In this document: piece by piece, positions 161 through 10,995 of the stretch
How the letters are laid out: the number at the start of each line of letters is the position of its first letter
How positions within the stretch are numbered: the stretch's first letter is position 1
From: a virus
Lineage: Duplodnaviria; Heunggongvirae; Uroviricota; Caudoviricetes
Virus record (IMG/VR): IMGVR_UViG_2541047847_000003
Location: 1-11,496 of that record
Length of the DNA stretch: 11,496 nt
Direction: 5' to 3' (one strand)
Notes under the pieces: generated by a model
Seen by the model: only the letters and a program-made list of their open reading frames with translations
What the model was told of the DNA's origin: nothing
Database searches by the model: none
Made by a program: the position numbers and the translations under genes

Positions 161-235
161 AACTGACCACACAACTGACCACACATTTTGTTGAAGCTCT
201 ACGAACAACGACGAACAATAACAAACAAAAGGGAA
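161..235. repeat. attL-proximal arm block: tandem AACTGACCACAC x2 followed by ACGAACAA-type repeats; homologous to 10929..10995
   Basis: AACTGACCACAC at 161..172 and 173..184. The roughly 75-bp block is about 80% identical (by eye) to the block beside int at the other end, in the same orientation. Confidence 0.6.
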
Positions 236-1134: not shown

Positions 1135-1419
1135 CTACCGCCGCAACCGTTCCGGCTTCCTCCACTGGTAAGTATTTTTCGCGCTCTCCCTCCGTTGTTG
1201 AGAACGGCGACGGTATGCCAGCAACTCAAGGACTCTGATCCGTATGTCGCGCATATCCACGCCGTTAAGCTCGATACCGTCACGGCGCATCATCTCAGCC
1301 ACCACACGCGCGTAATTTTCGGCTATCACGCTGTCCGGCTGCGTGGCCTCCTGTTTGCTTGATGGTTGTTTGATTCCGGTAACGCGGCGGATTAATCCCA
1401 GCAATTCAGATTCTGTCAT
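1135..1419 (-). CDS. Small protein immediately downstream of terS; possible lambda gpFI-like packaging accessory protein
   Basis: ORF of 94 aa. N-terminus MTESELLGLIRRVTG resembles lambda FI MTKDELIARLRSLG, and VVAEMMRRDG resembles the FI C-terminal VAAEMTERG, both from memory. The C-terminal 40 aa are basic and low-complexity. Confidence 0.45.
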   Translation of the reverse strand: MTESELLGLIRRVTGIKQPSSKQEATQPDSVIAENYARVVAEMMRRDGIELNGVDMRDIRIRVLELLAYRRRSQQRRESAKNTYQWRKPERLRR

Positions 1420-1430
1420 AGTGCGCTACG

Positions 1431-1958
1431 TTACTTGTCTTTATTCGGCTGCAACTTATCCGGCACATTTCCGGTAGTTTCCATCAGGTAATCAGCCAGT
1501 ATCTGCGGGAGGTTGTCGTCAACTCCGGCACTGGCATTACAGGCTTTAGCCACTTCCTTTTTAAGTCCATCCAGCATAGCCGGAGTCATCTGTGGGAAGC
1601 GCCTTTGCATGGTAAGCGGCAGACTGTCCATGATAGATGAAATCTGACTCGCCAGTTTGGAAAGAACATACATACAAAACTCTGTATCAATAACGTCGCC
1701 GCGTTCGCGCTCGTTTTTAAGCTCCTGCGCCTCTGCCTGTGCTGTCAGTAATCTGATCCTGACGCGTAAAAGTTCATCGTCATCAATATCGCCCGTTTCG
1801 TTTGTAATCTGACTAATTGCATTGTTAACCCGATTATCTATTACACTGGCAACATCATAGAATGCCTCACGGCCCTTACGCTCGACGGGAATCACTCCCC
1901 ACTTATCAAACGCAGTGGCGCTTACACGGCAACTTTTTGCCATGTTTTTTTTGTTCAT
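1431..1958 (-). CDS. Terminase small subunit, lambda Nu1 family
   Basis: Translation aligns with lambda Nu1: RLLTAQAEAQELKNERERGDVIDTEFCMYVLSKLASQISSIMDSLPLTMQRRFP versus RLTRAQADAQELKNARDSAEVVETAFCTFVLSRIAGEIASILDGLPLSVQRRFP. N-terminal DNA-binding region is more diverged. Start chosen at the ATG giving MNKKN; the ORF track extends to 1982. Confidence 0.85.
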   Translation of the reverse strand: MNKKNMAKSCRVSATAFDKWGVIPVERKGREAFYDVASVIDNRVNNAISQITNETGDIDDDELLRVRIRLLTAQAEAQELKNERERGDVIDTEFCMYVLSKLASQISSIMDSLPLTMQRRFPQMTPAMLDGLKKEVAKACNASAGVDDNLPQILADYLMETTGNVPDKLQPNKDK

Positions 1959-2083
1959 CAGGTGCAATTTCATTGATACCACAACTTAATTACTGTTTCA
2001 GGTTGGTGTATTGATTGTATTTTTCTCTTCTTATTCATAGAGATAGAGCGAACAACAAAACCACCACCAGCCCCCTGAAAATG

Positions 2084-2148
2084 CTCATAAATAGCGAAAA
2101 CCCGCGAGGTCGCCGCCCCGTAGCCTGCCGGATCGCCGGAAAGGACCC
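2084..2148 (-). other. Lambda-type cos site (cosQ-like and cosN; 12-nt cohesive-end sequence at 2107..2118)
   Basis: Reverse complement of 2084..2120 is ACGGGGCGGCGACCTCGCGGGTTTTCGCTATTTATGA, identical to the lambda cosN junction and left end. 2119..2148 matches the lambda right-end cosQ region at about 27 of 30 positions. Lies about 130-150 bp upstream of terS, as in lambda. Confidence 0.85.
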
Positions 2149-2174
2149 GCCAGCCAGAACGGGCCCTAATTTCA

Positions 2175-2558
2175 TCAACCAATCAACTTATAGCGACCAT
2201 CCCGTGCATTGCGACGTACACGCTCAATCTTGAGGCATAGCGCCGCATCTGGCTTTTTGGGGACAGGTACGCGGCAATATTCAGAAGCTCGAGGAATATT
2301 GTTTATCCAGTCGATCACTTCACTTAAATACCAGGCCTTACGCCCTTCCGTAACCTGTACGCGTTCGGGGAACTCTCCACGAGCCTCAAGGTTTAGCAAT
2401 GTGCGACGGCTAAGGGTAGTAAGTTCCATCACCTGATTCATATCAACAAGGCGTTCACTTAAACGCATTTTGTCAGCAATAGCCTTTAATTCCTCTACTG
2501 CTGGATCCGGATACATCATTTCGGCAATTGGCTTAAGGTCATTGTAATGATTCTGCAT
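2175..2558 (-). CDS. AlpA/Vis-family HTH protein (second copy), 127 aa
   Basis: Central segment LTTLSRRTLLNLEARGEFPERVQVTEGRKAWYLSEVIDWI matches the AlpA-type HTH pattern. GGGGGA Shine-Dalgarno 4 nt upstream of the ATG; sits between the decoration gene and cos. Confidence 0.65.
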   Translation of the reverse strand: MQNHYNDLKPIAEMMYPDPAVEELKAIADKMRLSERLVDMNQVMELTTLSRRTLLNLEARGEFPERVQVTEGRKAWYLSEVIDWINNIPRASEYCRVPVPKKPDAALCLKIERVRRNARDGRYKLIG

Positions 2559-2569
2559 TGTATCCCCCT

Positions 2570-2911
2570 TTACACACGAGCCAGCGGCTGAACAGAAATA
2601 CCTGAGCCAACAAACGCGGCAACCTTTGCCGACAGTTCTCTTACAGACTCAGGCCAGTTCAGAGCATCAACATTTAAAACACCTGTCTTATAAACCTGTG
2701 CCTGTGTTTTTTTCGCTGTGTCGATTTGTACAGCGGAAACATAAACCGCTTTGCCTGCGCTCGTTCCATCCCATACCACTAGCGCACCAGTTGCATCTTC
2801 CTGCATCAGTGGCGTAAACGCAGGTATTACCCCTTTATTGGCTGAAAATATCCCCAGCGTAGTAACCAGTGCTTCAGTGCCAGACATGAGTTCAGTGTAA
2901 TGAGTAGCCAT
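2570..2911 (-). CDS. Head decoration protein, lambda gpD-like
   Basis: 113 aa. FTPLMQEDATGALVVWDGTSAGKAV parallels lambda gpD [25 protein letters not shown]; similar length. GGGGGAG Shine-Dalgarno 9 bp after the MCP stop. Confidence 0.8.
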   Translation of the reverse strand: MATHYTELMSGTEALVTTLGIFSANKGVIPAFTPLMQEDATGALVVWDGTSAGKAVYVSAVQIDTAKKTQAQVYKTGVLNVDALNWPESVRELSAKVAAFVGSGISVQPLARV

Positions 2912-2920
2912 TGCTCCCCC

Positions 2921-3967
2921 TTAGCCAATGCGAACGGTAACAAAACGATTGATGCGGGCCGGTATTGGCTGTGGTGCTGAATGTGTCTGCACATATTCAA
3001 TAGCCGGATCACCAGGCACAATATAGTTTTTCGGTGCAAGTTCGGCTTTAGTCAGCCCCATCCGAATTAGCTCCGGATCCTGAATACCGCCATAAGCGAC
3101 AATCCCCTGAAGAGCCGTATTGCCAAGCACCATCAAATCAGGATCAAGGAAATATTTTTCAGTTCCGTCCTCGTCGGTATAACGCCCGCTGTAAACAACA
3201 ATCGCAACATCGCCCATATACCCTTTAAAACTCACCGAATCACCAAGGTCTTTAAGGGCCGTTTCCAGTTCGGAATTAGAACCTCGACGGGTATCCAGAG
3301 CCTCTTTTACAGCTCTGAATGAGCGGTATTTTTTCCATACATTGCCGCCCATAATAATGATATTAGTGACTCCCTCACTAAATTCTGCGTAGCTCTCAAT
3401 ATCATCATTTGGATCAAAAGATCCTTTATCCTTACCTGACCACTCAGCACCGCCAGACTGAGTGATGATATTTTGTGGTTTAATATTCCAGTCCAGTTCA
3501 TAACGTTCAATACCATCGCCCTCAATGATATTTTTCCCCGTTGTGATTGCCTGAACAGCAAGCCATTCAATACGTGCACGTATAGCTTTAGCCTGATTTA
3601 CAATCGCCTGTTTAACTTTAATATTACGCGCCCCAAAAGCATTGTATTGTTCAGGTGATACACCAGCAGGGCGCACAGCTAACTTATTTGGATCAATGCT
3701 GCTTTTCGGTTTCATATAGCCAGGGCGAATTGTTTTTGATTCGTATCCCTCATCTCGTGAAACTTTACTGCCCACCATAGGAGAGCAAAACGCCGCGATC
3801 GGGATATTTGGATCGTCGATCGTATCAAGAATAATGTCTCTCGATTCAAACATTACCGAGCGAGTGAAAAACAAACTGGTAAACAACGCATTTAATTTTT
3901 TTTGCACATCTTCAGCATTAGCCACCTGCACAAGCTGTGTAGGCGAATATAAATCAACCATACTCAT
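2921..3967 (-). CDS. Major capsid protein, lambda gpE family
   Basis: Long collinear similarity to lambda gpE, for example NIITQSGGAEWSGKDKGSFDPNDDIESYA and AVKEALDTRRGSNSELETALKDLG and GDVAIVVYSG. Start set at MSMVDLY (lambda begins MSMYTT) with AAGAGG just upstream; the ORF track start at 4048 is probably an upstream extension. Confidence 0.9.
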   Translation of the reverse strand: MSMVDLYSPTQLVQVANAEDVQKKLNALFTSLFFTRSVMFESRDIILDTIDDPNIPIAAFCSPMVGSKVSRDEGYESKTIRPGYMKPKSSIDPNKLAVRPAGVSPEQYNAFGARNIKVKQAIVNQAKAIRARIEWLAVQAITTGKNIIEGDGIERYELDWNIKPQNIITQSGGAEWSGKDKGSFDPNDDIESYAEFSEGVTNIIIMGGNVWKKYRSFRAVKEALDTRRGSNSELETALKDLGDSVSFKGYMGDVAIVVYSGRYTDEDGTEKYFLDPDLMVLGNTALQGIVAYGGIQDPELIRMGLTKAELAPKNYIVPGDPAIEYVQTHSAPQPIPARINRFVTVRIG

Positions 3968-4132
3968 CCTCTTTACATTCATTACAAATAATTGTGAATA
4001 TATTCTATTACCGATGTCTGCTATGCGAATACATGCAACCAAGTGCAATGTTGTATAAAATCTGCCGTGACAACTTCAGTGCTGATAATTCGTGTTAATG
4101 TATTTACTTCCTTTGGTCGGGATTTATGTAGC

Positions 4133-4171
4133 ATGCCGGAAAATCTATTTTCTTCCGGCATTTTTTTATTT
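4133..4171 (+). terminator. Intrinsic-terminator-like hairpin with T-run on the plus strand
   Basis: ATGCCGGAA (4133..4141), 11-nt loop, TTCCGGCAT (4153..4161), then TTTTTTTATTT. On the minus strand the hairpin has no U-run after it. Confidence 0.45.
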
Positions 4172-4178
4172 GCAGAAT

Positions 4179-4601
4179 TTAAAACGGTATATTATCGCCG
4201 TACGGATCATCATTCCCCGACTGTTGTTTTGCCCTGTTCAGTGCGTCAGTAGCCTGGCCCTGTTGACCTTTTTTGCCGCCCGGTCGCGCCGTTCTGGCAC
4301 TGATTACACTGTCTGCGATAACCTGCCAGCCCTGCCGCGTTTCGCCGTTCTGGCCTGTCCACTGGCTTACCTGCATGTTACCCGCCACGCTCACCAGTTC
4401 GCCTTTGTGGTGTTTTGCCAGTGCGTCGGCCTGTCTGCCAAACGCCAGGACGGATAACCACATCGTCGCCGTTCCGTCATCTGCCTGGCTGCACGGAAGT
4501 GGGACCGCCATACTCGCCATCGTCATTTGTGTACCCTTGCTGGTGGTCTTTAACTGCGGGTCAGCCACCAGCCGCCCGTAAGCCGCTATCTGTGCTGTCA
4601 T
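4179..4601 (-). CDS. Single-stranded DNA-binding protein (SSB-like)
   Basis: 140 aa with an OB-fold-like pattern (WLSVLAFGRQADALAKHHKGELVSVAGNMQVSQWTGQNGETRQ), a Gly/Gln-rich linker and a C-terminal DDPYGDNIPF resembling the SSB DDDIPF tail. Confidence 0.7.
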   Translation of the reverse strand: MTAQIAAYGRLVADPQLKTTSKGTQMTMASMAVPLPCSQADDGTATMWLSVLAFGRQADALAKHHKGELVSVAGNMQVSQWTGQNGETRQGWQVIADSVISARTARPGGKKGQQGQATDALNRAKQQSGNDDPYGDNIPF

Positions 4602-4843
4602 GCTGTCTGCTCTCCGGTTTTAACGTTGATGGTTGTCACCTGTTCCGCTTCGGCAATCTCCCGTTCTGTCAGCGTGGCAAAGTTTGCAGCTGCCGTTGTC
4701 ATGAATGAGCTAATCAGTTCGGGATGTGCTTTCGCATATCCTTCCCCGGCGTTGCGGTCGATGATTTTTATCGACACCCTTAACCAGTGTTCCGTCAAAT
4801 CAAGGGCGTGCGATTGTGATTTTTTTGTGTGCTTCGCTGTCAT
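4598..4843 (-). CDS. Hypothetical protein, 81 aa, translationally coupled to ssb
   Basis: ORF whose stop overlaps the ssb start by 4 bp (ATGA); no recognisable motifs. Confidence 0.45.
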   Translation of the reverse strand: MTAKHTKKSQSHALDLTEHWLRVSIKIIDRNAGEGYAKAHPELISSFMTTAAANFATLTEREIAEAEQVTTINVKTGEQTA

Positions 4844-4895
4844 AGGCTTTATCTCACAGCAGTAAATTAAAATTTTTGCGTTTTAACCCTTCACC

Positions 4896-5116
4896 TGTTC
4901 ACCTTTTGATATTTTATCTTTTAATTCATAATGTTAAGGGGTGAACAGTTTCACAAAAACTATTCACCAACTGTTCACCACTGTTCACCCTTGAAGCTCA
5001 ATAAACAATCAAAAAGGTGAACAGTGAATAGTTTGGTGAACAGTTCATAAATAACTGTTCACCCTATAACATACTGATACAAAAGATATTTATGACAGGG
5101 TGAACAGTGGTGAACA
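4896..5116. repeat. Origin-like iteron cluster: about 10 copies of TGTTCACC/GGTGAACA in both orientations with AT-rich spacers (P4 ori/crr type)
   Basis: TGTTCACC at 4896, 4972, 4982, 5056; GGTGAACA at 4940, 5016, 5035, 5099, 5109; variants at 4961 and 5024. Immediately downstream of the alpha-like gene. Confidence 0.85.
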
Positions 5117-5130
5117 GTTATTCCATAAGT

Positions 5131-6948
5131 TTAATTTTTGCTATCGTCATTAGTGACCGATACACATGATGGCATCCAGTCTTCTGATTCCTCCGTCAGT
5201 GTCACGTTTGAACGCAAACCGTGCTTCGTTTTCCGTTTCATATACTCCCTGCCATATTCCGCCATTGCCCCCGGCATATCTTTACCGAAGCGCGTCAGTG
5301 TTACAGGTTTACCAAACCCATGTGCCCTCATATAAGCCAGATAGGCATGATAGAGATACCTGCGTGGGCTGAATGGCACAATTTCAGCATTACCCACTAA
5401 CAGGCCATCACACATTACCGACGCCATGAGATAGCCGCAGAAGTCCACCAGCGAATCCCCCTCTCGCTTTATCGCCAGTGCTTCTTCAGATTTCTGCTGC
5501 TCATATAACAGGCGTCTGGCTTCGTCCTGGTCAGCAAACCGTGTAAGCAGATGGCGAATCACTACCGCCAACTCACCTTCTATTTTTTCCGCCAGCATTG
5601 GATCGCGTTCGTTCTCCGGTACAACTTCCGAAAAATTGAATATCACCCGACGACGTGAGATCCCCCCGCTGCGGTCACTGAATGACATGGCGTTATTGTT
5701 AACCGCCAGCACTACTGCCGGAATACGCGTTGAGTAGGGGGCTTTGTGTTTCGGGTCAATTGCCACCTTGTCACCGCCTGTAATGGCCTTAATTCCTGCC
5801 CCATCACCAGCGTAGCGGGTCATATCCGGCATGATAATCAGCGAAAAGCCAACCACTAACGCGCGTTCCCTTGCATCTTCCAGCGCCTTCATGCTTGCCG
5901 ATACTGTGTTGGCCTTACCCGCCAGCATGGTGCAAATCTCCGCCATCACGCTTTTACCACTTCCCCCTGGACCTGTTACCTCAATGAATAACTGCCAGTC
6001 GTACCGGTTCGCCAGCACCATGAATAATGCAGCCAGTACGCGATCCGCCTTGCGGTCATTCTCAGCCACCGAACGGCGTAACCACTTCCAGAAATTCGGC
6101 GCATGTGTTGCCAGCGTTTCCCCCTCTGCTGGTGGGCTGAAAGGTAATTCACTGGCAATTAACAACCAGTCGTTTTTGTTATGCTCCCGAAAATTACCTG
6201 TTCTGGTATCAAATACCCCGTTACTGAATCCAATCAGGTTACGGGCTGTATTCCCCATTACAGGCAAACTTAACTTCATGGTATCGACCGCCGATTTAAT
6301 GGCGTTCTGCGAATAGCTGATCTCTGCATCAATGAAAATCTGCGCCATAGCTCGCTGTAATTCTTTATCCTGTACTGGCTCCCATACAACGCCGTTGTAA
6401 TGGTGAACAGTGTCAGAGTCAGCATGAATCGCCAGTTCACCGCCATAATGTGCCAGGAGAACTTCGCCGCGTTGACTTGCTCCCATCTGGTTAAGCGCCA
6501 GTGATGAAGCGTTATCGTCTTTTACCCGCTCTTTTTTCTTTACAGGCAGTTCAACTACCTTTTTCTTTTCCGCCAGCTCTGCCCGTTCACGTTCCAGATA
6601 TTCGCGCCAGTTCTCCCGTTTCTGGCTGTGCATTCCTTCAGGGTAATAATCAGCATCCCTGACACCTGCCGCTGCCAGTTTCTGCCCGATGGTATTAACA
6701 AGCCCCGGACGCAATAACCCCGCCTGATAGAGACGCACGCGATAGCGTCCGTCCGGTACGATTTGCAGGTTGTCCAGTTCGGCAAGTTGTTGCTCTCCAA
6801 GCCAGACAGGAGGCACGTTATCGCCAGCCAGTCGCCCGTCCTGTTCCTGCCACTGCTTCGCATGTGCCCACGCATCACTACCCGCAAAAATGATGACTTC
6901 CGTCATTTTGTCACGCGGCTGGTGTTTTAAATTTGGCGCTTTTTTCAT
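5131..6948 (-). CDS. P4 alpha-like replication protein (primase/helicase family, D5-type P-loop NTPase)
   Basis: Walker A GPGGSGKS and a Walker B-like hydrophobic stretch; adjacent TGTTCACC iterons. Start set at the ATG giving MKKAPNL (GGAGAGAG upstream); the ORF track start at 6963 is a GTG. No primase catalytic motif was identified by eye. Confidence 0.8.
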   Translation of the reverse strand: MKKAPNLKHQPRDKMTEVIIFAGSDAWAHAKQWQEQDGRLAGDNVPPVWLGEQQLAELDNLQIVPDGRYRVRLYQAGLLRPGLVNTIGQKLAAAGVRDADYYPEGMHSQKRENWREYLERERAELAEKKKVVELPVKKKERVKDDNASSLALNQMGASQRGEVLLAHYGGELAIHADSDTVHHYNGVVWEPVQDKELQRAMAQIFIDAEISYSQNAIKSAVDTMKLSLPVMGNTARNLIGFSNGVFDTRTGNFREHNKNDWLLIASELPFSPPAEGETLATHAPNFWKWLRRSVAENDRKADRVLAALFMVLANRYDWQLFIEVTGPGGSGKSVMAEICTMLAGKANTVSASMKALEDARERALVVGFSLIIMPDMTRYAGDGAGIKAITGGDKVAIDPKHKAPYSTRIPAVVLAVNNNAMSFSDRSGGISRRRVIFNFSEVVPENERDPMLAEKIEGELAVVIRHLLTRFADQDEARRLLYEQQKSEEALAIKREGDSLVDFCGYLMASVMCDGLLVGNAEIVPFSPRRYLYHAYLAYMRAHGFGKPVTLTRFGKDMPGAMAEYGREYMKRKTKHGLRSNVTLTEESEDWMPSCVSVTNDDSKN

Positions 6949-7244
6949 TTCTGCTCTCTCCACGCGGCAATCATGTTTTTCAGTTCCTGTAGTTTTTTAT
7001 CCACATCCACACGTGACACATGGTTATTTCTGGAAGTCGGGATTTCCCGCCGGAATCTGCAAATAAAGATCTCCACGTTCAGCGAACTAAGAAATGAATA
7101 GCCATCACGAATAAAATACACACGGTCAAACATCAGTTCTTTTACCGTTACTCTGTTACCGTTCTTATCCAGATAAATAGCGCCGGGGATAATTTTGGGG
7201 TGTGCATAACCGCTGGCAGTCAAGCCAGATAAATATGTTCTCAT
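6945..7244 (-). CDS. Hypothetical protein, 99 aa, translationally coupled to the alpha-like gene
   Basis: Stop overlaps the alpha start (ATGA); no recognisable motifs. Confidence 0.55.
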   Translation of the reverse strand: MRTYLSGLTASGYAHPKIIPGAIYLDKNGNRVTVKELMFDRVYFIRDGYSFLSSLNVEIFICRFRREIPTSRNNHVSRVDVDKKLQELKNMIAAWREQK

Positions 7245-7250
7245 GATTAT

Positions 7251-7571
7251 TTATCCCCGATTTGAATCAGTATTCGCTTTCTTTATGGCATTTAATGCAT
7301 CTGTGGCATTTTCAATGGTGCACCGTAACGAAATATCAAACTGCCCAAGCATTGCCAGTAACAAACCGATATTACCCATATCAATGCGCATAGCCTTTTC
7401 GTCATAGTCCTCATTTTCTGACGCATGCCACATCAGACTACCAATTGACGCAACAGCCATTGATATATTGTCAGTAGCCCCATCCGCAGCGGAATAAACC
7501 TTTTTAGCAATATCATGCTCACAGTTAAAATGCGGATTAATCAGGTACTGGTAATTTGACATATCAGGCAT
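7251..7571 (-). CDS. Hypothetical protein, 106 aa
   Basis: ORF in the same operon; its start overlaps the stop of the upstream 67-aa ORF (ATGCCTGA). Confidence 0.55.
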   Translation of the reverse strand: MPDMSNYQYLINPHFNCEHDIAKKVYSAADGATDNISMAVASIGSLMWHASENEDYDEKAMRIDMGNIGLLLAMLGQFDISLRCTIENATDALNAIKKANTDSNRG

Positions 7572-7767
7572 GGCACACCCCCTGACGAATACGGGCGGCG
7601 AATACCATCACGCAGCCAGCCGGGGATTGCTGGCGTGCTTCCTGTTCGCTGGTGGCCACGATGTGAATCACGCGCGGTTGTGCGGTGCTCAGGGCGATAA
7701 AACGCCAGATGTATTTATTCAGGTCGTGCGAGTCCCGCCCTTGCGGGTGTGTGGTATGATTTCTCAT
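7564..7767 (-). CDS. Hypothetical small protein, 67 aa, first gene of the replication operon
   Basis: Internal ATG of the 320-aa track ORF, preceded by GAGG; the sequence upstream in that frame looks non-coding. Stop is coupled to the next gene. Confidence 0.45.
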   Translation of the reverse strand: MRNHTTHPQGRDSHDLNKYIWRFIALSTAQPRVIHIVATSEQEARQQSPAGCVMVFAARIRQGVCHA

Positions 7768-7863
7768 AGCTACCTCGATACGCTTTCTATCGTTGGTGGT
7801 TAGAAGCCCGGTTAGTGTTAGCGCACTGCCGGGTTTCGTCGTTTCTGCACCTTGCATCAACAA

Positions 7864-7917
7864 GGTGTTGAACACCAATTTAAGCCTAGGTGTTAAACAC
7901 GTCAAGTGTTGAACACT
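7864..7917. promoter_or_regulatory. Three operator-like inverted repeats (GGTGTTGAACACC, GGTGTTAAACAC, AGTGTTGAACACT) in a divergent promoter region
   Basis: Repeats at 7864..7876, 7889..7900 and 7905..7917. The third overlaps a candidate -35 (TTGAAC) placed 17 bp from CATACT for the plus-strand gene. Confidence 0.6.
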
Positions 7918-7966
7918 TATTTTTTTTCCTGCATACTGCATTTGTTTTTTGTAAGGGGTACACAAC

Positions 7967-8146
7967 ATGGCGACAAAAGCAGTAAACGCAAAATCACAAA
8001 CAGTTGCGGCAAGGGTTCCGCATGAAGTTATGAACAATGTTGAGGCGGTAAAAATGCCTGGTGAAAGTACAGGGCAGTTTGTAACAGCAGCATTAAAGCG
8101 AGAAGTTGAATACCGCCAGCGTCGCAAGGCCAAAGAGCAGGAGTAA
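7967..8146 (+). CDS. Small ribbon-helix-helix-like protein, 59 aa; candidate repressor
   Basis: Below the ORF-track length cutoff. AGGGG Shine-Dalgarno 8 nt upstream. Pattern QTVAARVPHEVMNNVEAV...GESTGQFVTAALKRE fits a beta-strand/helix/helix RHH layout. Confidence 0.5.
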   Translation: MATKAVNAKSQTVAARVPHEVMNNVEAVKMPGESTGQFVTAALKREVEYRQRRKAKEQE

Positions 8147-8203
8147 CCATCACCAGCGCCGTGGTGCGGTGAACTGTGGCGCACAGGGTTACAGGTATCT
8201 ACG

Positions 8204-8383
8204 ATGACTGACAAATCATTAAAGAAATTATCCTCATCCAAGAAAAAACAACGCAAAAATGCGGTAAACGAACATGAACCGGAGAGATTCGCACCATGTG
8301 CGTTTGTCCTTGAGAAGTACCTTAAAGAGTATTCTAGGAAAATACGCTCATTGCAGGCATGGCAGCGAATCGAGCCAGACTGA
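8204..8383 (+). CDS. Hypothetical small basic protein, 59 aa
   Basis: ORF found by hand downstream of the RHH-like gene and before the plus-strand terminator; weak Shine-Dalgarno. Confidence 0.3.
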   Translation: MTDKSLKKLSSSKKKQRKNAVNEHEPERFAPCAFVLEKYLKEYSRKIRSLQAWQRIEPD

Positions 8384-8447
8384 TAGCATTGCCCACCAGC
8401 CAACAACCTGGTATTCTGGATATGCTCAAGTTTAGTGTTATGCCACT

Positions 8448-8477
8448 GGCGACCGCCCTTGGTCGCCTTTGTTTTAT
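8448..8477 (+). terminator. Rho-independent terminator (plus strand)
   Basis: GGCGACC, loop GCCCTT, GGTCGCC, followed by TTTGTTTTAT. Confidence 0.6.
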
Positions 8478-8494
8478 GTGTCATAGCTCCCCCC

Positions 8495-8719
8495 CTACGC
8501 TGCCTTACCTGAATTAACGCGGTCACGGCTTTGCACCCAGTCCATAACTTCGGAAAGCAACCAGCCTACAGAACGCCCCCCAAGATTACGGCGAGACGGA
8601 AAGCCCCCTTTCTTCTCCAGTTCGTAGCGTGTAGTACGGCTGACGCCTGTTAACTTACGACATTCATCTTCACGAATTACGCGATCTGTTAGTGATTGAA
8701 ATTGTGTATTTTGATTCAT
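8495..8719 (-). CDS. alpA: AlpA-family transcriptional regulator / excisionase-like HTH protein
   Basis: 74 aa; RKLTGVSRTTRYELEKKGGFPSRRNLGGRSVGWLLSEVMDWV matches the AlpA/Vis-type HTH pattern; GAGGG Shine-Dalgarno. Confidence 0.8.
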   Translation of the reverse strand: MNQNTQFQSLTDRVIREDECRKLTGVSRTTRYELEKKGGFPSRRNLGGRSVGWLLSEVMDWVQSRDRVNSGKAA

Positions 8720-8822: not shown

Positions 8823-9677
8823 TTAATTTTCATTAGATAACATTTTTCTTATTTTTTCTAAAGAATCGCTGCGCATTATTTTTTCTAAGAAGGGTTTTAC
8901 AGTCTGAGCAATAGCAAAGGTGTCCTTTTCACCATCAGGATACAAAGATACGGCAAGCACCCCTAATGAAATTTTTCTATCTGTAGACAACTCCCAAGAT
9001 AATAAGTCAATTAATGGGATTATCTTATAATCAATAATTTTACGTCGTATGCTCTCCCAACTTCCTGCAATTGGTTTGTCTGGCTCAACAATTGAAAGTT
9101 CACTACGCCATTTTGGTAATAGTTTTGTAAACGCTTCAATCAACTCATCATCTCTGTTATGTAGTAAGTCAACAGAAACAAGCATATTATCTAATGTATC
9201 AGAAAGGAGATTCACTGGTTCACGCATCACAGCCCAAAACATCCCATTATCTTCTGATATTAAACTTCCAACCATCTCATTATCTATGATGATTGGTTTA
9301 TCCTTCCAATATCCTCTTTCCGCAGTCAGTTTATTAATCATTGATATATCAAACCTTGTTACAGGTTTAATTCCATCATCATAACTTAGCTCAATTAACT
9401 TCGGCTGCACTTTATGGTCATATTCTTTTTGTTTATCACAAAACCAATCGTCTTCTTTCAGCTCTCCAAATGGATCCCCATAATTATTATGCAACGGGTA
9501 TTCAGCACCAAACATAAAACCATATTCAGGCATCTCAGAATGTTTCATTGTTAAATCATCTTGTCGCCAATATAATTGGCGAAATAGATCTTTATCCGAC
9601 AAGTTTTCTAGGCAATCATATTTGCCTAAATCAAATGACTTTGGTAAATCTTTTTTACTATTTACTTTTTTCGTCAT
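8823..9677 (-). CDS. Hypothetical 284-aa protein, AT-rich cargo gene immediately downstream of int
   Basis: Long ORF whose start overlaps the int stop by 4 bp. Visibly more AT-rich than the neighbouring genes (not computed). No motif I recognise. Confidence 0.7.
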   Translation of the reverse strand: MTKKVNSKKDLPKSFDLGKYDCLENLSDKDLFRQLYWRQDDLTMKHSEMPEYGFMFGAEYPLHNNYGDPFGELKEDDWFCDKQKEYDHKVQPKLIELSYDDGIKPVTRFDISMINKLTAERGYWKDKPIIIDNEMVGSLISEDNGMFWAVMREPVNLLSDTLDNMLVSVDLLHNRDDELIEAFTKLLPKWRSELSIVEPDKPIAGSWESIRRKIIDYKIIPLIDLLSWELSTDRKISLGVLAVSLYPDGEKDTFAIAQTVKPFLEKIMRSDSLEKIRKMLSNEN

Positions 9678-10894
9678 TGTATCCCTCTCAATATCACAAT
9701 ATTTTCATTATATCCTGCAATCATATCAAGACGCTCAACCCATAGATGCAGTGCGTCCCGTTTCGCCTGCAAATAGCGTGAATGGTTATAGGTTTTTTGC
9801 TGACCTGGCATCTGATGCGCTGTGATGTGCTCCACGATATGCGGATCGACACCTAAATCATTCAGCATAGTTGTAAACGTGTGTCGGAAATCATGCAGCG
9901 TCCAGTGTTCCTGCTTAAGCCGCTTATGCGCATTTCGTCCATATTGCGCCACCGTGGTATCTTTTTTCAGTTCGCCGAGTAATAACCCAGTGTGTGCGTT
10001 TTGCTCCACCAGCTTCTGAATGAACGGCAAAATACCATCAGGAATAGGTCGGAATATTGTTACCTTCGTTTTGCTGTGCTCTTTTGGCACTGTCCACAAC
10101 ATTTCTTTCAGATCCCATTCTTTGATCTCTGAAAGTCTGATCTCTGCCGTTCTGCACCCGAACACAATTAACAAGCGCATTAACGCACTGTAATAGGGAG
10201 CGAACACATCACCATCAATAGCGCGTAGAATTTCTTTTAGTTCGCTGTTGCTGTGCACTCTCTCGCGGATTTCTGCTCTCTTACCCACATCAGTAACGAT
10301 CAAATCGTCCAGGGCGTTGCTAAACGCGTAGCGCCGCCTGCGGCAAAACTTTAGCGCCTGTTTGCATGTCTGCATGACATGGCCCGCTGCTACTGGTGCT
10401 TTTTTTCGTACGCGGTCAAAACATGCGATCCACTGCCTTGTATCACACTTATCAAGGGGAATTGCCCCGATATGGCAAATGATGTGCTTATCCATACGCT
10501 GCACCAGCTTTATGTAATCTTTGCGGTTATCCTTCGCGTATTCCTCCAGCCAGTAGTTAATCGCTTCCTTCACCGTAACGGGTTTTAGTGCTTCCTGTAC
10601 TGTGGCGCACAACTCATACCGAGGGTTTTTACCCTCAGCCAGCCATGCCCGGCACTGTGTTCGCTTTTCCCTTGCAGATTTCAGCGACAATTCCGGGTAA
10701 GCCCCCAGCTTTAACCGCTCTGCGGCAACCTCACGGCCTCCCGTTCGGTACCGGAAATACCAGGTTAATTTACCTCCCTTTGAGTGTTTAATCTCCAGCC
10801 CGCCCCCGTCGGAGTAAAAACGTTCTTTTTCTGCCTGGACAGCCACCAATTTTTTTAACGTTGAATCGCTCAGTTTGTTTAGTGCTTTTCCCAC
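9674..10894 (-). CDS. int: Tyrosine recombinase, P4-type integrase family
   Basis: 406 aa. N-terminal arm-binding-type region (GGKLTWYFRYRTGGREV...LGAYPELSLKSAREK); C-terminal catalytic motifs HDFRHTF and YNHSRY; GTG start. Confidence 0.9.
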   Translation of the reverse strand: MGKALNKLSDSTLKKLVAVQAEKERFYSDGGGLEIKHSKGGKLTWYFRYRTGGREVAAERLKLGAYPELSLKSAREKRTQCRAWLAEGKNPRYELCATVQEALKPVTVKEAINYWLEEYAKDNRKDYIKLVQRMDKHIICHIGAIPLDKCDTRQWIACFDRVRKKAPVAAGHVMQTCKQALKFCRRRRYAFSNALDDLIVTDVGKRAEIRERVHSNSELKEILRAIDGDVFAPYYSALMRLLIVFGCRTAEIRLSEIKEWDLKEMLWTVPKEHSKTKVTIFRPIPDGILPFIQKLVEQNAHTGLLLGELKKDTTVAQYGRNAHKRLKQEHWTLHDFRHTFTTMLNDLGVDPHIVEHITAHQMPGQQKTYNHSRYLQAKRDALHLWVERLDMIAGYNENIVILRGIQ

Positions 10895-10928: not shown

Positions 10929-10995
10929 AAACTGACCACACAACTGACCACACATTTCGCTGAAACTCGGCAAACAACAACGAACAGCAACAAAC
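10929..10995. repeat. int-proximal arm block: tandem AACTGACCACAC x2 plus CAACAACGAACA-type repeats; homologous to 161..235
   Basis: AACTGACCACAC at 10929..10940 and 10941..10952, about 30 bp upstream of the int start. Confidence 0.6.

What the first reader, a model, noticed from the sequence alone, without database searches (positions are those of the whole stretch)
2570..3967. Satellite-encoded gpE-like capsid protein and gpD-like decoration protein without portal, protease or scaffold
The gene order is E then D (the reverse of lambda), both coupled by strong Shine-Dalgarno sequences, and there is no head-module partner. The capsid protein probably co-assembles on helper portal and scaffold; its differences from lambda gpE could set a smaller shell suited to 11 kb. 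Providing a replacement coat protein rather than a scaffold would be a distinct size-redirection strategy.
Basis: partly seen in the sequence, partly recalled or inferred. Interest (0 to 1): 0.8.

Follow-up and report, generated by a model that had tools for sequence, protein, structure and literature searches.

The report
Known satellite capsid-and-decoration gene pair
An E. coli phage satellite (a classical Gram-negative PICI) carries its own lambda-type coat protein and cement protein but no other head genes; this gene pair was published in 2018, and no laboratory phenotype has been found for it.

Summary
Window 2921-3967(-) encodes a lambda gpE-family major capsid protein (E'). Window 2570-2911(-) encodes a gpD/SHP-family decoration protein (D'). 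Their order is E then D, they are tightly coupled, and the 10.8-kb island has no portal, protease or scaffold gene.

The pair is not new. The island is a classical Gram-negative PICI. The model element EcCICFT073 has the same pair (c1499/c1500; c1499 is PDB 3BQW), and capsid genes are reported in 21 of 29 reference PICIs. Near-identical modules sit in "helper-embedded" PICIs inserted in lambda-like prophage genes E or B.

Its packaged DNA is phage-sized, and deleting either gene leaves transfer and interference unchanged.

What I add:
- E' and D' form an old satellite-only lineage, about 42% identical to any phage gpE.
- Both are under strong purifying selection (dN/dS about 0.06-0.15) and intact in 78 of 80 relatives.
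- The island carries lambda cosN and a full-length Nu1-like TerS.
- Island sizes cluster near a quarter of the lambda genome.

Best reading: functional coat and cement proteins that assemble on helper portal and scaffold into lambda-sized heads. Their function remains unproven.

The parts
2921..3967 (-). E': lambda gpE-family HK97-fold major capsid protein (346-348 aa; probable start ATG at 3961, upstream ATG at 3967)
   Evidence: Pfam Phage_cap_E 4.5e-41. 42% identical to lambda gpE. 55% identical to EcCICFT073 c1499. PDB 3BQW 9.7e-121 and lambda gpE 7VI9 2.9e-76. dN/dS 0.06-0.12.
2570..2911 (-). D': gpD/SHP-family head decoration (cement) protein, 113 aa
   Evidence: Pfam HDPD 4.6e-15. 40% identical to lambda gpD. 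54% identical to EcCICFT073 c1500. Phage 21 SHP 1TD0 3.3e-16. dN/dS 0.06-0.15.
2912..2920 (-). 9-nt E'-D' junction containing the Shine-Dalgarno GGGGGAG
   Evidence: Read directly from the sequence.
3968..4178 (-). SSB-E' intergenic region. Contains a hairpin just after the SSB stop, a conserved TTGCA-N6-TGCAT element (4033-4048), a promoter-like TTCGCA-16-TAGAAT (4029-4002) and the SD AAAGAGG.
   Evidence: Promoter scan. Alignment with relatives, including the divergent L005. The motif is not significantly enriched in the window, so a regulatory role is only a suggestion.
2175..2558 (-). AlpA-like HTH protein (127 aa), coupled to D' by an 11-nt gap with SD AGGGGGA. Always linked to E'-D' in relatives.
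   Evidence: Pfam Phage_AlpA 1.4e-8. PHROG 2790 1.8e-48. Present next to D' in 77 of the 78 loci that hold complete E' and D'. Not homologous to the EcCICFT073 gene in the same position.
2075..2150 (-). cos site: exact lambda cosN 12-mer at 2107-2118, with 34 nt identical to the lambda left end, followed by a different cosB-like region
1431..1982 (-). Full-length Nu1-like small terminase subunit (180-183 aa)
   Evidence: Pfam Phage_Nu1 1.1e-24. 35% identical to lambda Nu1 across residues 3-180, including the C-terminal part. No BLASTP similarity to RppA of EcCICFT073.
1135..1419 (-). Conserved 94-aa PICI protein of unknown function, the last gene of the late zone
   Evidence: PHROG 1561 8.8e-49. 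68% identical to the last gene of EcCICFT073.
4179..4601 (-). SSB, the upstream neighbour of E' in all relatives
   Evidence: Pfam SSB 4.3e-16..
4940..5123 (.). Iterons (GGTGAACAGT) downstream of the primase gene; probable PICI ori
   Evidence: the repeat finder families D2, D8, D9 and D16. The position matches the published PICI ori location (PMC6092414).
5131..6963 (-). Primase/helicase (D5_N, DUF5906, Pox_D5)
8495..8719 (-). AlpA-type regulator downstream of int (ORF at 8495-8719)
   Evidence: ORF list. Annotated as a helix-turn-helix regulator at the same position in L007.
9674..10894 (-). Tyrosine integrase
   Evidence: ORF list. Annotation of L007.
161..226 (.). Left copy of a 66-nt imperfect direct repeat (86% identical); the right copy is at 10930-10995. 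These are the probable att sites, bounding a 10,769-bp element.
10930..10995 (.). Right copy of the att direct repeat

Best explanation
The segment is the conserved capsid module of the 'late zone' of a classical Gram-negative PICI of the EcCICFT073 / 11capE kind.

Shown:
- E' is a gpE-family HK97-fold coat protein and D' is a gpD/SHP-type cement protein.
- They are read as one tightly coupled unit, E'-D'-HTH.
- They belong to a satellite-specific lineage that is kept intact by purifying selection.
- The island also carries lambda cosN, a private cosB and a Nu1-like TerS. It therefore depends on a lambda-like helper for TerL, portal, protease/scaffold, connectors and tail.

Inferred:
- After helper induction, E' assembles on the helper's portal, protease and scaffold into lambda-sized (T=7) shells, or into contiguous shell areas.
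- D', which has co-diverged with E', cements those areas because helper gpD fits them poorly.
- The island is packaged as a roughly 4-unit concatemer (4 x 10.8 kb = 43 kb, about 89% of lambda).
- The pair gives the satellite a coat supply that does not depend on helper E and D. This should matter most when the satellite sits inside the helper's own E or B gene. It is redundant when the helper expresses its own coat, which would explain the lack of a laboratory phenotype.
For: Identity.

Same pair and same order in EcCICFT073. A third subclade, in a 10.3-kb element, also has E' followed immediately by D'.

Functional constraint:
- dN/dS is 0.06-0.12 for E' and 0.06-0.15 for D'.
- 78 of 80 IMG/VR relatives have full-length E' and D'. 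Among 42 E' alleles there are 91 synonymous and 32 non-synonymous variants.
- The module is present in 397 of 5426 complete E. coli genomes, and 395 of those hold at least 80% of the 1398-nt E'-D' span.

Old satellite lineage rather than recent capture:
- No phage among 50,697 records exceeds 44% identity.
- The E and D trees each give a satellite clade, and the two trees agree.
- D' relatives come from Citrobacter, Klebsiella, Cedecea, Serratia, Enterobacter and Salmonella.

Private E'-D' interface:
- The D' N-terminal 30 residues and the E' N-terminal half are the parts least like lambda (21-37% identity).
- E' residues 57-86, 264-292 and 323-348 are 73-77% conserved between satellite subclades.
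- In lambda, the gpD N-terminus pairs with the gpE E-loop and N-arm (PMC5701804).

Lambda-type helper:
- cosN is exact.
- 60 of 80 relatives are inserted in lambda-like helper gene E (45) or portal gene B (15).

Size: inserts are 10.36-11.60 kb, median 10.92 kb.

Full-size heads in the model relative: PMC6092414.
Against: - No direct evidence exists that E' or D' is ever incorporated into a particle.
- In EcCICFT073, deleting either gene had no effect on transfer or on interference. The published view is 'not required'.
- E' is only about 42% identical to helper gpE, so compatibility with helper Nu3, C and B is uncertain.
- The same E' (99% identical) is found in helpers whose head proteins are 97-100% lambda-like and in helpers only about 60% lambda-like (L033 and L091). 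That argues against fine-tuned co-assembly with helper gpE.
- The window's own subclade has never been tested experimentally.
Confidence: 0.5

Rival explanations
1. Size redirection: E', with D', builds or nucleates a smaller shell (T=3 or T=4) that fits one or two island genomes and excludes the helper genome.
For: - Precedents exist. SaPIbov5 Ccm is a capsid homologue that redirects capsid size. PmCI172 encodes a capsid homologue and makes small heads (PMC6893505 and PMC6092414).
- Island size is tightly constrained at 10.4-11.6 kb. By my own scaling estimate, that range would also fit one copy in a T=3 shell or two copies in a T=4 shell.
- The window's subclade is only 55% identical to the tested EcCICFT073 protein.
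- Much later EcCICFT073 work used the c1499::cat island, which lacks the capsid gene.
Against: - In EcCICFT073 all packaged DNA was phage-sized, and deleting c1499 or c1500 did not relieve interference or reduce transfer.
- E' has the same length and architecture as gpE, with no indel larger than 4 residues.
- Four island units (43-44 kb) fit the lambda head, which explains the size constraint equally well.
Confidence: 0.12
2. Backup copy only: E'-D' exist to replace the helper coat gene that helper-embedded PICIs interrupt. In chromosomal islands such as this one they are a carried-over passenger.
For: - 45 of 80 relatives are inserted in helper gene E (also L006, L008 and L009).
- The HE-PICI authors proposed a backup role (PMC10111431).
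Against: - Islands inserted in the portal gene (15 of 80, plus L010) and at chromosomal sites (window, L001, L005, L007, EcCICFT073) keep E'-D' equally intact. None of them carries a portal copy.
- D' is not interrupted by any of these insertions, yet it is always kept.
- The lineage is far older than any one insertion site.
Confidence: 0.15
3. Interference or decoy: E' and/or D' act against the helper or against competing phages. They could poison helper shell assembly, titrate helper scaffold, FI or chaperonin, compete for gpD sites, or act as a decoy or sensor for capsid-triggered immunity.
For: - PICIs generally interfere with their helpers.
- Related islands carry defence-like cargo (TIR, Abi, DUF2971) in other positions.
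- The pair is strongly conserved without any transfer phenotype.
Against: - Deleting c1499 or c1500 did not restore lambda plaques. When late-region genes were expressed individually, only c1503 (RppA) blocked lambda.
- No PADLOC match for the neighbouring genes.
- Both proteins retain full-length structural-protein architecture.
Confidence: 0.1
4. Inactive remnants of a captured helper head module that are slowly decaying.
For: - No phenotype on deletion in the model island.
- PICI late zones do capture helper late genes (PMC10111431).
Against: - dN/dS is 0.06-0.15.
- 78 of 80 relatives are intact, and neither exception carries a stop codon or frameshift in the part that aligns: L090 is cut by the contig end, and in L024 similarity to the module ends within D'.
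- The pair is only 42% identical to any phage copy and forms its own clade across genera.
- SD-coupled translation signals are conserved.
Confidence: 0.03

Closest known systems
EcCICFT073 c1499 (capsid protein, PDB 3BQW) and c1500 (head decoration protein), in the model Gram-negative PICI of E. coli CFT073
   Same: - Same gene pair, same E-then-D order and same position after SSB in the late zone.
- Same island architecture: int, alpA, DUF4222, primase, ori, SSB and a conserved last gene.
- Lambda-type cosN and lambda-like helpers (PMC6092414).
   Different: - Only 55% (E') and 54% (D') identical, so a different subclade.
- The gene after D' is unrelated.
- This island has a full-length Nu1-like TerS instead of RppA.
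- It has one detected cosN rather than two.
- Its integration site is thiM/rcnR.
Helper-embedded PICIs (11capE type; Phage_cap_E_80 and Phage_portal sites), PMC10111431
   Same: The E'-D'-HTH module is 95-99% identical at nucleotide or protein level. Size is the same (10.4-11.6 kb), as is the four-zone organisation.
   Different: The window's island is chromosomal (thiM/rcnR) and has a different integrase, 40-43% identical to the integrases of the embedded islands. It has no cis relationship with a helper late operon.
Lambda gpE / gpD (and phage 21 SHP)
   Same: Same protein families, lengths and predicted fold. The motifs PGYxKPK, LDTRRGSNSELETA and GDVAIVVYSG are conserved.
   Different: - 42% (E') and 31-40% (D') identity.
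- Gene order is inverted.
- The pair is not embedded in a portal-protease-scaffold operon.
- There are 20 clade-diagnostic substitutions in E'.
- D' has a shorter N-terminus and an SVQPL C-terminal tail.
SaPIbov5 Ccm (capsid-homologue size redirector)
   Same: A satellite-encoded homologue of the helper's major capsid protein, present without a portal or protease gene (PMC6893505).
   Different: - Ccm demonstrably shrinks capsids, and the helper coat protein is still required.
- In the E. coli model relative no size change was found.
- Ccm has no partner decoration protein.
- Sequence relatedness to Ccm was not tested here.
Capsid-forming PICIs (EcCIEDL933)
   Same: PICI backbone (int, alpA, rep) plus satellite-encoded coat protein.
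   Different: cf-PICIs encode the whole head and packaging set: portal, protease, connectors, TerS, TerL and HNH. They make their own small capsids. This island has only E', D' and TerS.

Membership tests
Phage_cap_E (lambda gpE family of HK97-fold major capsid proteins) | Significant full-length match to the family profile and to lambda gpE | tested here: met
   Pfam PF03864 at 141 bits against a cut-off of 22.9, covering profile positions 4-327 of 329. 42% identity to gpE over 345 aa.
Phage_cap_E (lambda gpE family of HK97-fold major capsid proteins) | HK97 fold supported by solved structures of close relatives | tested here: met
   Sequence match to 3BQW (9.7e-121) and to lambda capsid gpE chains 7VI9 and others (2.9e-76). 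No structure was predicted here.
Phage_cap_E (lambda gpE family of HK97-fold major capsid proteins) | Assembles into an icosahedral shell in virions | not testable with these tools
   Needs particle proteomics or cryo-EM.
HDPD (lambda gpD / phage 21 SHP decoration proteins) | Significant match to the family profile and to solved gpD/SHP structures | tested here: met
   PF02924 at 56 bits against a cut-off of 29.1. 1TD0 3.3e-16 and 1C5E 2.2e-12.
HDPD (lambda gpD / phage 21 SHP decoration proteins) | Trimer binding at three-fold sites of an expanded gpE lattice | not testable with these tools
   Inferred only, from homology and from co-inheritance with E'.
Classical Gram-negative PICI | Unidirectional int - alpA - primase/rep backbone | tested here: met
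   All of these genes are on the minus strand in that order.
Classical Gram-negative PICI | Iteron-type ori immediately 3' of the primase gene | tested here: met
   GGTGAACAGT iterons at 4940-5123. Function not tested.
Classical Gram-negative PICI | Flanking att direct repeats, size about 10-20 kb, site-specific chromosomal insertion | tested here: met
   A 66-nt repeat with copies 10,769 bp apart. Sister islands occupy the same thiM/rcnR site.
Classical Gram-negative PICI | Uses helper packaging through a helper-type cos or pac site, or its own TerS/Rpp | tested here: met
   Exact lambda cosN with 34 nt of the lambda left end, plus a Nu1-like TerS.
Classical Gram-negative PICI | Induction and high-frequency transfer by a helper phage | not testable with these tools
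   Shown experimentally only for relatives such as EcCICFT073 (PMC6092414).
Capsid-forming PICI (cf-PICI) | Complete head and packaging gene set (portal, protease, connectors, TerL, HNH) | tested here: not met
   No such family was matched by any ORF. There is no room for them in a 10.8-kb island.
Capsid size-redirecting capsid homologue (Ccm-like function) | Presence of the gene produces small capsids and satellite-sized packaged DNA | not testable with these tools
   Tested by others in the 55%-identical EcCICFT073 system, where DNA was phage-sized and deletion had no effect.
Helper-embedded PICI | [quoted passage not shown] | tested here: not met
   The window is flanked by rcnR and the thiM side. 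However, 60 of 80 carriers of the same module are embedded.

The most novel reading that the evidence does not exclude
With natural lambda-like helpers, E' and D' could build satellite-only shells, made of E' alone and cemented by D', on stolen helper portal, protease and scaffold. That would be a coat-replacement step half-way between classical PICIs and capsid-forming PICIs. In this untested subclade such shells might be smaller than the helper's.
Probability: 0.1. Interest if true: 0.7.

Novelty: already known. Interest (0 to 1): 0.3.

Why it matters
Most Gram-negative PICIs keep a capsid gene (21 of 29 reference elements), yet the only experiments done found no phenotype. My analysis shows that the E'/D' pair is an old, satellite-specific lineage under strong selection, and that it is the most stable block in otherwise mosaic islands. 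It therefore must do something. Learning what it does would clarify how classical PICIs relate to capsid-forming PICIs and how satellites that interrupt helper head genes still obtain heads. As a finding from this window, however, it re-identifies a published feature.

Tried and rejected
- The search for homologous proteins with E' failed twice, so the wide survey used D' only.
Genomic context in other genera is therefore unverified, apart from one IMG/VR element (L095).
- A viral-contig scan with the Salmonella D' homologue found nothing.
- Recent recombination with lambda, as an explanation for the lambda-like central part of E' (residues 175-263, 60-76% identical), was rejected. Nucleotide identity there is only 74% over 136 nt.
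- The TTGCA-N6-TGCAT element upstream of E' is conserved in relatives but is not enriched in the window: 3 matches against 1.9 expected. I make no regulatory claim for it.
- Rfam found no immunity-RNA or other family.
- PADLOC found no defence family in the accessory ORFs.
- Structure prediction was not run. A crystal structure of a 55%-identical homologue already exists (3BQW), and the tool would have accepted only a shallow alignment.
- Literature searches for newer work on the function of PICI capsid genes found nothing beyond the 2018, 2019 and 2023 papers.
Full report
**What is in the window**

All substantial genes lie on the minus strand. Reading in the direction of transcription they are:

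| Coordinates | Feature |
|---|---|
| 9674-10894 | tyrosine integrase |
| 8823-9677 | DUF6387 accessory gene |
| 8495-8719 | AlpA-type regulator |
| 6945-7244 | DUF4222 protein |
| 5131-6963 | D5-type primase/helicase |
| 4940-5123 | GGTGAACAGT iterons |
| 4598-4843 | 81-aa protein |
| 4179-4601 | SSB |
| 2921-3967 | E' |
| 2570-2911 | D' |
| 2175-2558 | AlpA-like HTH protein |
| about 2075-2150 | cos site |
| 1431-1982 | Nu1-like small terminase |
| 1135-1419 | conserved 94-aa protein |

These assignments rest. A 66-nt imperfect direct repeat (161-226 and 10930-10995) bounds a 10,769-bp element. The right flank is rcnR, and the same thiM/rcnR site is occupied by a 97.5%-identical island in E. 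coli C21. This is the standard architecture of a classical Gram-negative PICI.

**Check of the observation**

- E' matches Pfam Phage_cap_E (4.5e-41) and D' matches HDPD (4.6e-15).
- E' aligns with lambda gpE end to end at 42% identity with only 10 gap positions. D' is 40% identical to gpD over 78 residues.
- The sequence shows TAA-GGGGGAGCA-ATG between E' and D', and TAA-AGGGGGATACA-ATG between D' and the HTH gene. The three genes therefore form a translationally coupled unit.
- In lambda, ev017, vB_EcoM-720R5 and Vibrio phage ST2-1pr the order is portal-protease-D-E. The E-then-D order is therefore a real inversion.
- No ORF matches a portal, protease or scaffold family.
- The island is not without packaging functions. 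It has the exact lambda cosN 12-mer inside a 34-nt stretch identical to the lambda left end, followed by unrelated sequence where cosB would be. Next comes a protein 35% identical to lambda Nu1 across residues 3-180.

**It is already known**

Fillol-Salom et al. [quoted passage not shown]

- I located that island in CFT073 (L004). It has the same SSB ... E-D order. Its proteins are 55% (E') and 54% (D') identical to those of the window. c1499 is the crystal structure 3BQW.
- The authors deleted each gene. Lambda interference was unchanged, and transfer by the resident prophages was unchanged (3.8e3 and 8.7e3 against 8e3). All packaged DNA was phage-sized.
[quoted passage not shown] That island transfers at 1e5-1e6.
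- The interference factor was later shown to be RppA (c1503), which retargets helper TerS (PMC6739421).
- The helper-embedded PICI paper (PMC10111431) states that a major capsid gene is present in 21 of 29 reference Gram-negative PICIs and is 'not required' for transfer. It proposes capture from helpers and a possible backup role.
- Capsid-homologue-based size redirection is also a known idea, from SaPIbov5 Ccm and PmCI172 (PMC6893505).
- I found no newer paper that resolves the function.

**What the comparative data add**

1. Prevalence.
   - The E'-D' module occurs in 397 of 5426 complete E. coli genomes.
   - 395 of them hold at least 80% of the 1398-nt span, at 84-100% nucleotide identity.
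2. Selection.
   - Pairwise dN/dS is 0.06-0.12 for E' and 0.06-0.15 for D'. These values are similar to those of the neighbouring SSB and HTH genes.
   - In 80 IMG/VR relatives, 78 have complete 348-aa and 113-aa reading frames. Of the other two, L090 is cut by the contig end, and in L024 similarity to the module ends within D' for a reason I did not resolve.
   - The 42 E' alleles differ by 91 synonymous and 32 non-synonymous codon variants. The genes are therefore not remnants.
3. Lineage.
   - No phage among 50,697 records has an E homologue above 44% identity; lambda itself is the top hit.
   - Neighbour-joining trees of E and of D each place the window, L005 and EcCICFT073 proteins in one clade. 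That clade is sister to the enteric phage proteins, and the two trees agree.
   - A third subclade, in a 10.3-kb IMG/VR element, again has primase, then E', then D' 2 nt later.
   - D' relatives with the same signatures (short N-terminus, SVQPL tail) come from Citrobacter, Klebsiella, Cedecea, Buttiauxella, Scandinavium, Serratia, Enterobacter, Lelliottia, Pluralibacter and Salmonella. I could not retrieve their genomic context.
   - This points to an old, co-inherited satellite lineage, not to recent capture from present-day helpers.
4. Modularity.
   - Across the 80 relatives, SSB-E'-D'-HTH is essentially invariant. The integrase varies from 22% to 67% identity and the primase from 37% to 100%. 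The TerS is sometimes absent or replaced.
   - Sister islands at the very same thiM/rcnR site replace the whole block from SSB to TerS. In its place they carry a ClpP-like protease/capsid fusion protein, tail-protein genes and a DUF1441 protein.
5. Helpers.
   - 45 of 80 relatives are inserted in a lambda-like helper's gene E near codon 82, and 15 are inserted in portal gene B near codon 275.
   - Complete-genome examples are L006, L008 and L009 (gene E) and L010 (gene B).
   - Most of those helpers have head proteins 97-100% identical to lambda's. The same E' (99% identical) also sits in helpers only about 60% identical to lambda (L033, L091).
6. Size.
   - Embedded inserts measure 10.36-11.60 kb, with a median of 10.92 kb. 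The window's element is 10.77 kb.
   - Four units make 43-44 kb, about 90% of the lambda genome. From general knowledge of lambda, this lies within its packaging limits and above the length at which gpD becomes necessary.
7. Where E' differs from gpE.
   - Identity to lambda is 21-37% over residues 1-174 and 31% over the last 26 residues, but 60-76% over residues 175-263.
   - Between satellite subclades, the best-conserved stretches are 57-86, 264-292 and 323-348.
   - The first 30 residues of D' have no detectable similarity to gpD.
   - In lambda, the gpD N-terminus forms a beta-sheet with the E-loop and N-arm of gpE (PMC5701804).
   - The pattern fits a private, co-evolved E'-D' interface. 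This is an inference, because I did not map domain boundaries on a structure.

**Most likely mechanism**

Shown:
- The proteins are full-length, selected members of the gpE and gpD families.
- They are co-transcribed and coupled.
- The island depends on a lambda-type helper (cosN, insertion sites).
- In the model relative the heads are full-sized and the genes are dispensable.

Inferred:
- E' assembles on helper portal, protease and scaffold into T=7 shells or contiguous shell areas.
- D' is retained because helper gpD does not fit the E' lattice.
- The pair gives the satellite a coat supply independent of helper E and D. This is redundant in standard laboratory transfers. It may matter when the satellite interrupts helper head genes, when helper late expression is limiting, or across diverse helpers.

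I put about 0.5 on this reading. The rivals are:

| Rival | Weight | Main point |
|---|---|---|
| Size redirection | 0.12 | Contradicted in EcCICFT073, untested in this subclade |
| Pure backup for helper-embedded islands | 0.15 | Does not explain retention in portal-embedded and chromosomal islands, nor retention of D' |
| Interference or decoy role | 0.10 | Deletions did not relieve interference, though RppA would mask a weak effect |
| Decaying remnants | 0.03 | Refuted by the selection data |

One caveat applies to the published evidence. The text does not say which marked version of EcCICFT073 was used for the DNA-size experiment, and much later work used the capsid-deleted island. Those data therefore prove dispensability better than they define what E' does when present.

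**Verdict**

The feature is already known and interest is modest. The remaining value is the open question of why this module is so strongly conserved.

Noticed in passing
window 2075-2150 (cosN at 2107-2118, minus strand) and 1431-1982: Exact lambda cosN, with 34 nt identical to the lambda left end, followed by unrelated cosB-like sequence and a full-length Nu1 homologue (35% identical, including the C-terminal part). This island therefore seems to use its own TerS with helper TerL. EcCICFT073 instead uses RppA, to which this protein shows no BLAST similarity.
   Followed up: partly
L011 (E. coli ST131 strain 751), locus 3185-6909; same thiM/rcnR site as the window: Sister islands with near-identical int, DUF6387, alpA and primase replace the whole block from SSB to TerS. 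In its place they carry a 637-aa ClpP-like prohead protease/major capsid fusion protein, tail-protein genes and a DUF1441 protein. The capsid-gene type and the packaging-factor type thus appear to swap together.
   Followed up: partly
L012-L091 (IMG/VR) and L006, L008, L009, L010: Of 80 carriers of the same E'-D' module, 45 are inserted in a lambda-like helper's gene E near codon 82 and 15 in portal gene B near codon 275. Insert sizes are 10.36-11.60 kb, about a quarter of the lambda genome.
   Followed up: yes
window 4033-4048 and 4002-4029 (minus strand): TTGCA-N6-TGCAT lies upstream of a weak promoter-like TTCGCA-16-TAGAAT before E'. The dyad-like element and the TAnAAT box are conserved even in the divergent L005 intergenic region. 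This could be an activator-dependent late promoter, but the motif is not enriched in the window.
   Followed up: partly
window 4120-4170 (minus strand), just after the SSB stop: A 9-bp GC-rich hairpin (ATGCCGGAA...TTCCGGCAT) is preceded by an A-run on the coding strand. It therefore looks like a terminator for the opposite strand, or a weak bidirectional one, sitting between the replication genes and the capsid genes.
   Followed up: no
window 8823-9677 (minus strand): A DUF6387 protein (284 aa, low GC of about 35-40%) lies between int and alpA. In relatives this slot holds TIR-domain or DUF2971 proteins, and similar cargo (Abi-family, TIR-domain or DUF2971 proteins) also sits at the distal end of the late zone. 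Both look like variable cargo or defence slots. There was no PADLOC hit.
   Followed up: partly
protein P0026 (E. coli, 194 aa): A database protein named 'terminase small subunit' carries both Phage_Nu1 and HDPD domains and is 100% identical to D' over 73% of its length. It is apparently a deletion variant that fuses D' to the TerS gene.
   Followed up: no
window 7564-8526 (minus strand): A 320-aa ORF spans the region where relatives are annotated with small Icd-like and YlcI/YnfO genes and a truncated hypothetical gene. It is probably not a real gene. GC skew changes sign here, and no Rfam family (for example P4-type immunity RNA) was detected.
   Followed up: partly
L005 compared with the window (E' 84% but D' 96% identical at the protein level): Divergence is unequal inside the module. 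For E', dS is 1.3; for D', dS is 0.27. This indicates a recombination breakpoint between or within the two genes.
   Followed up: no
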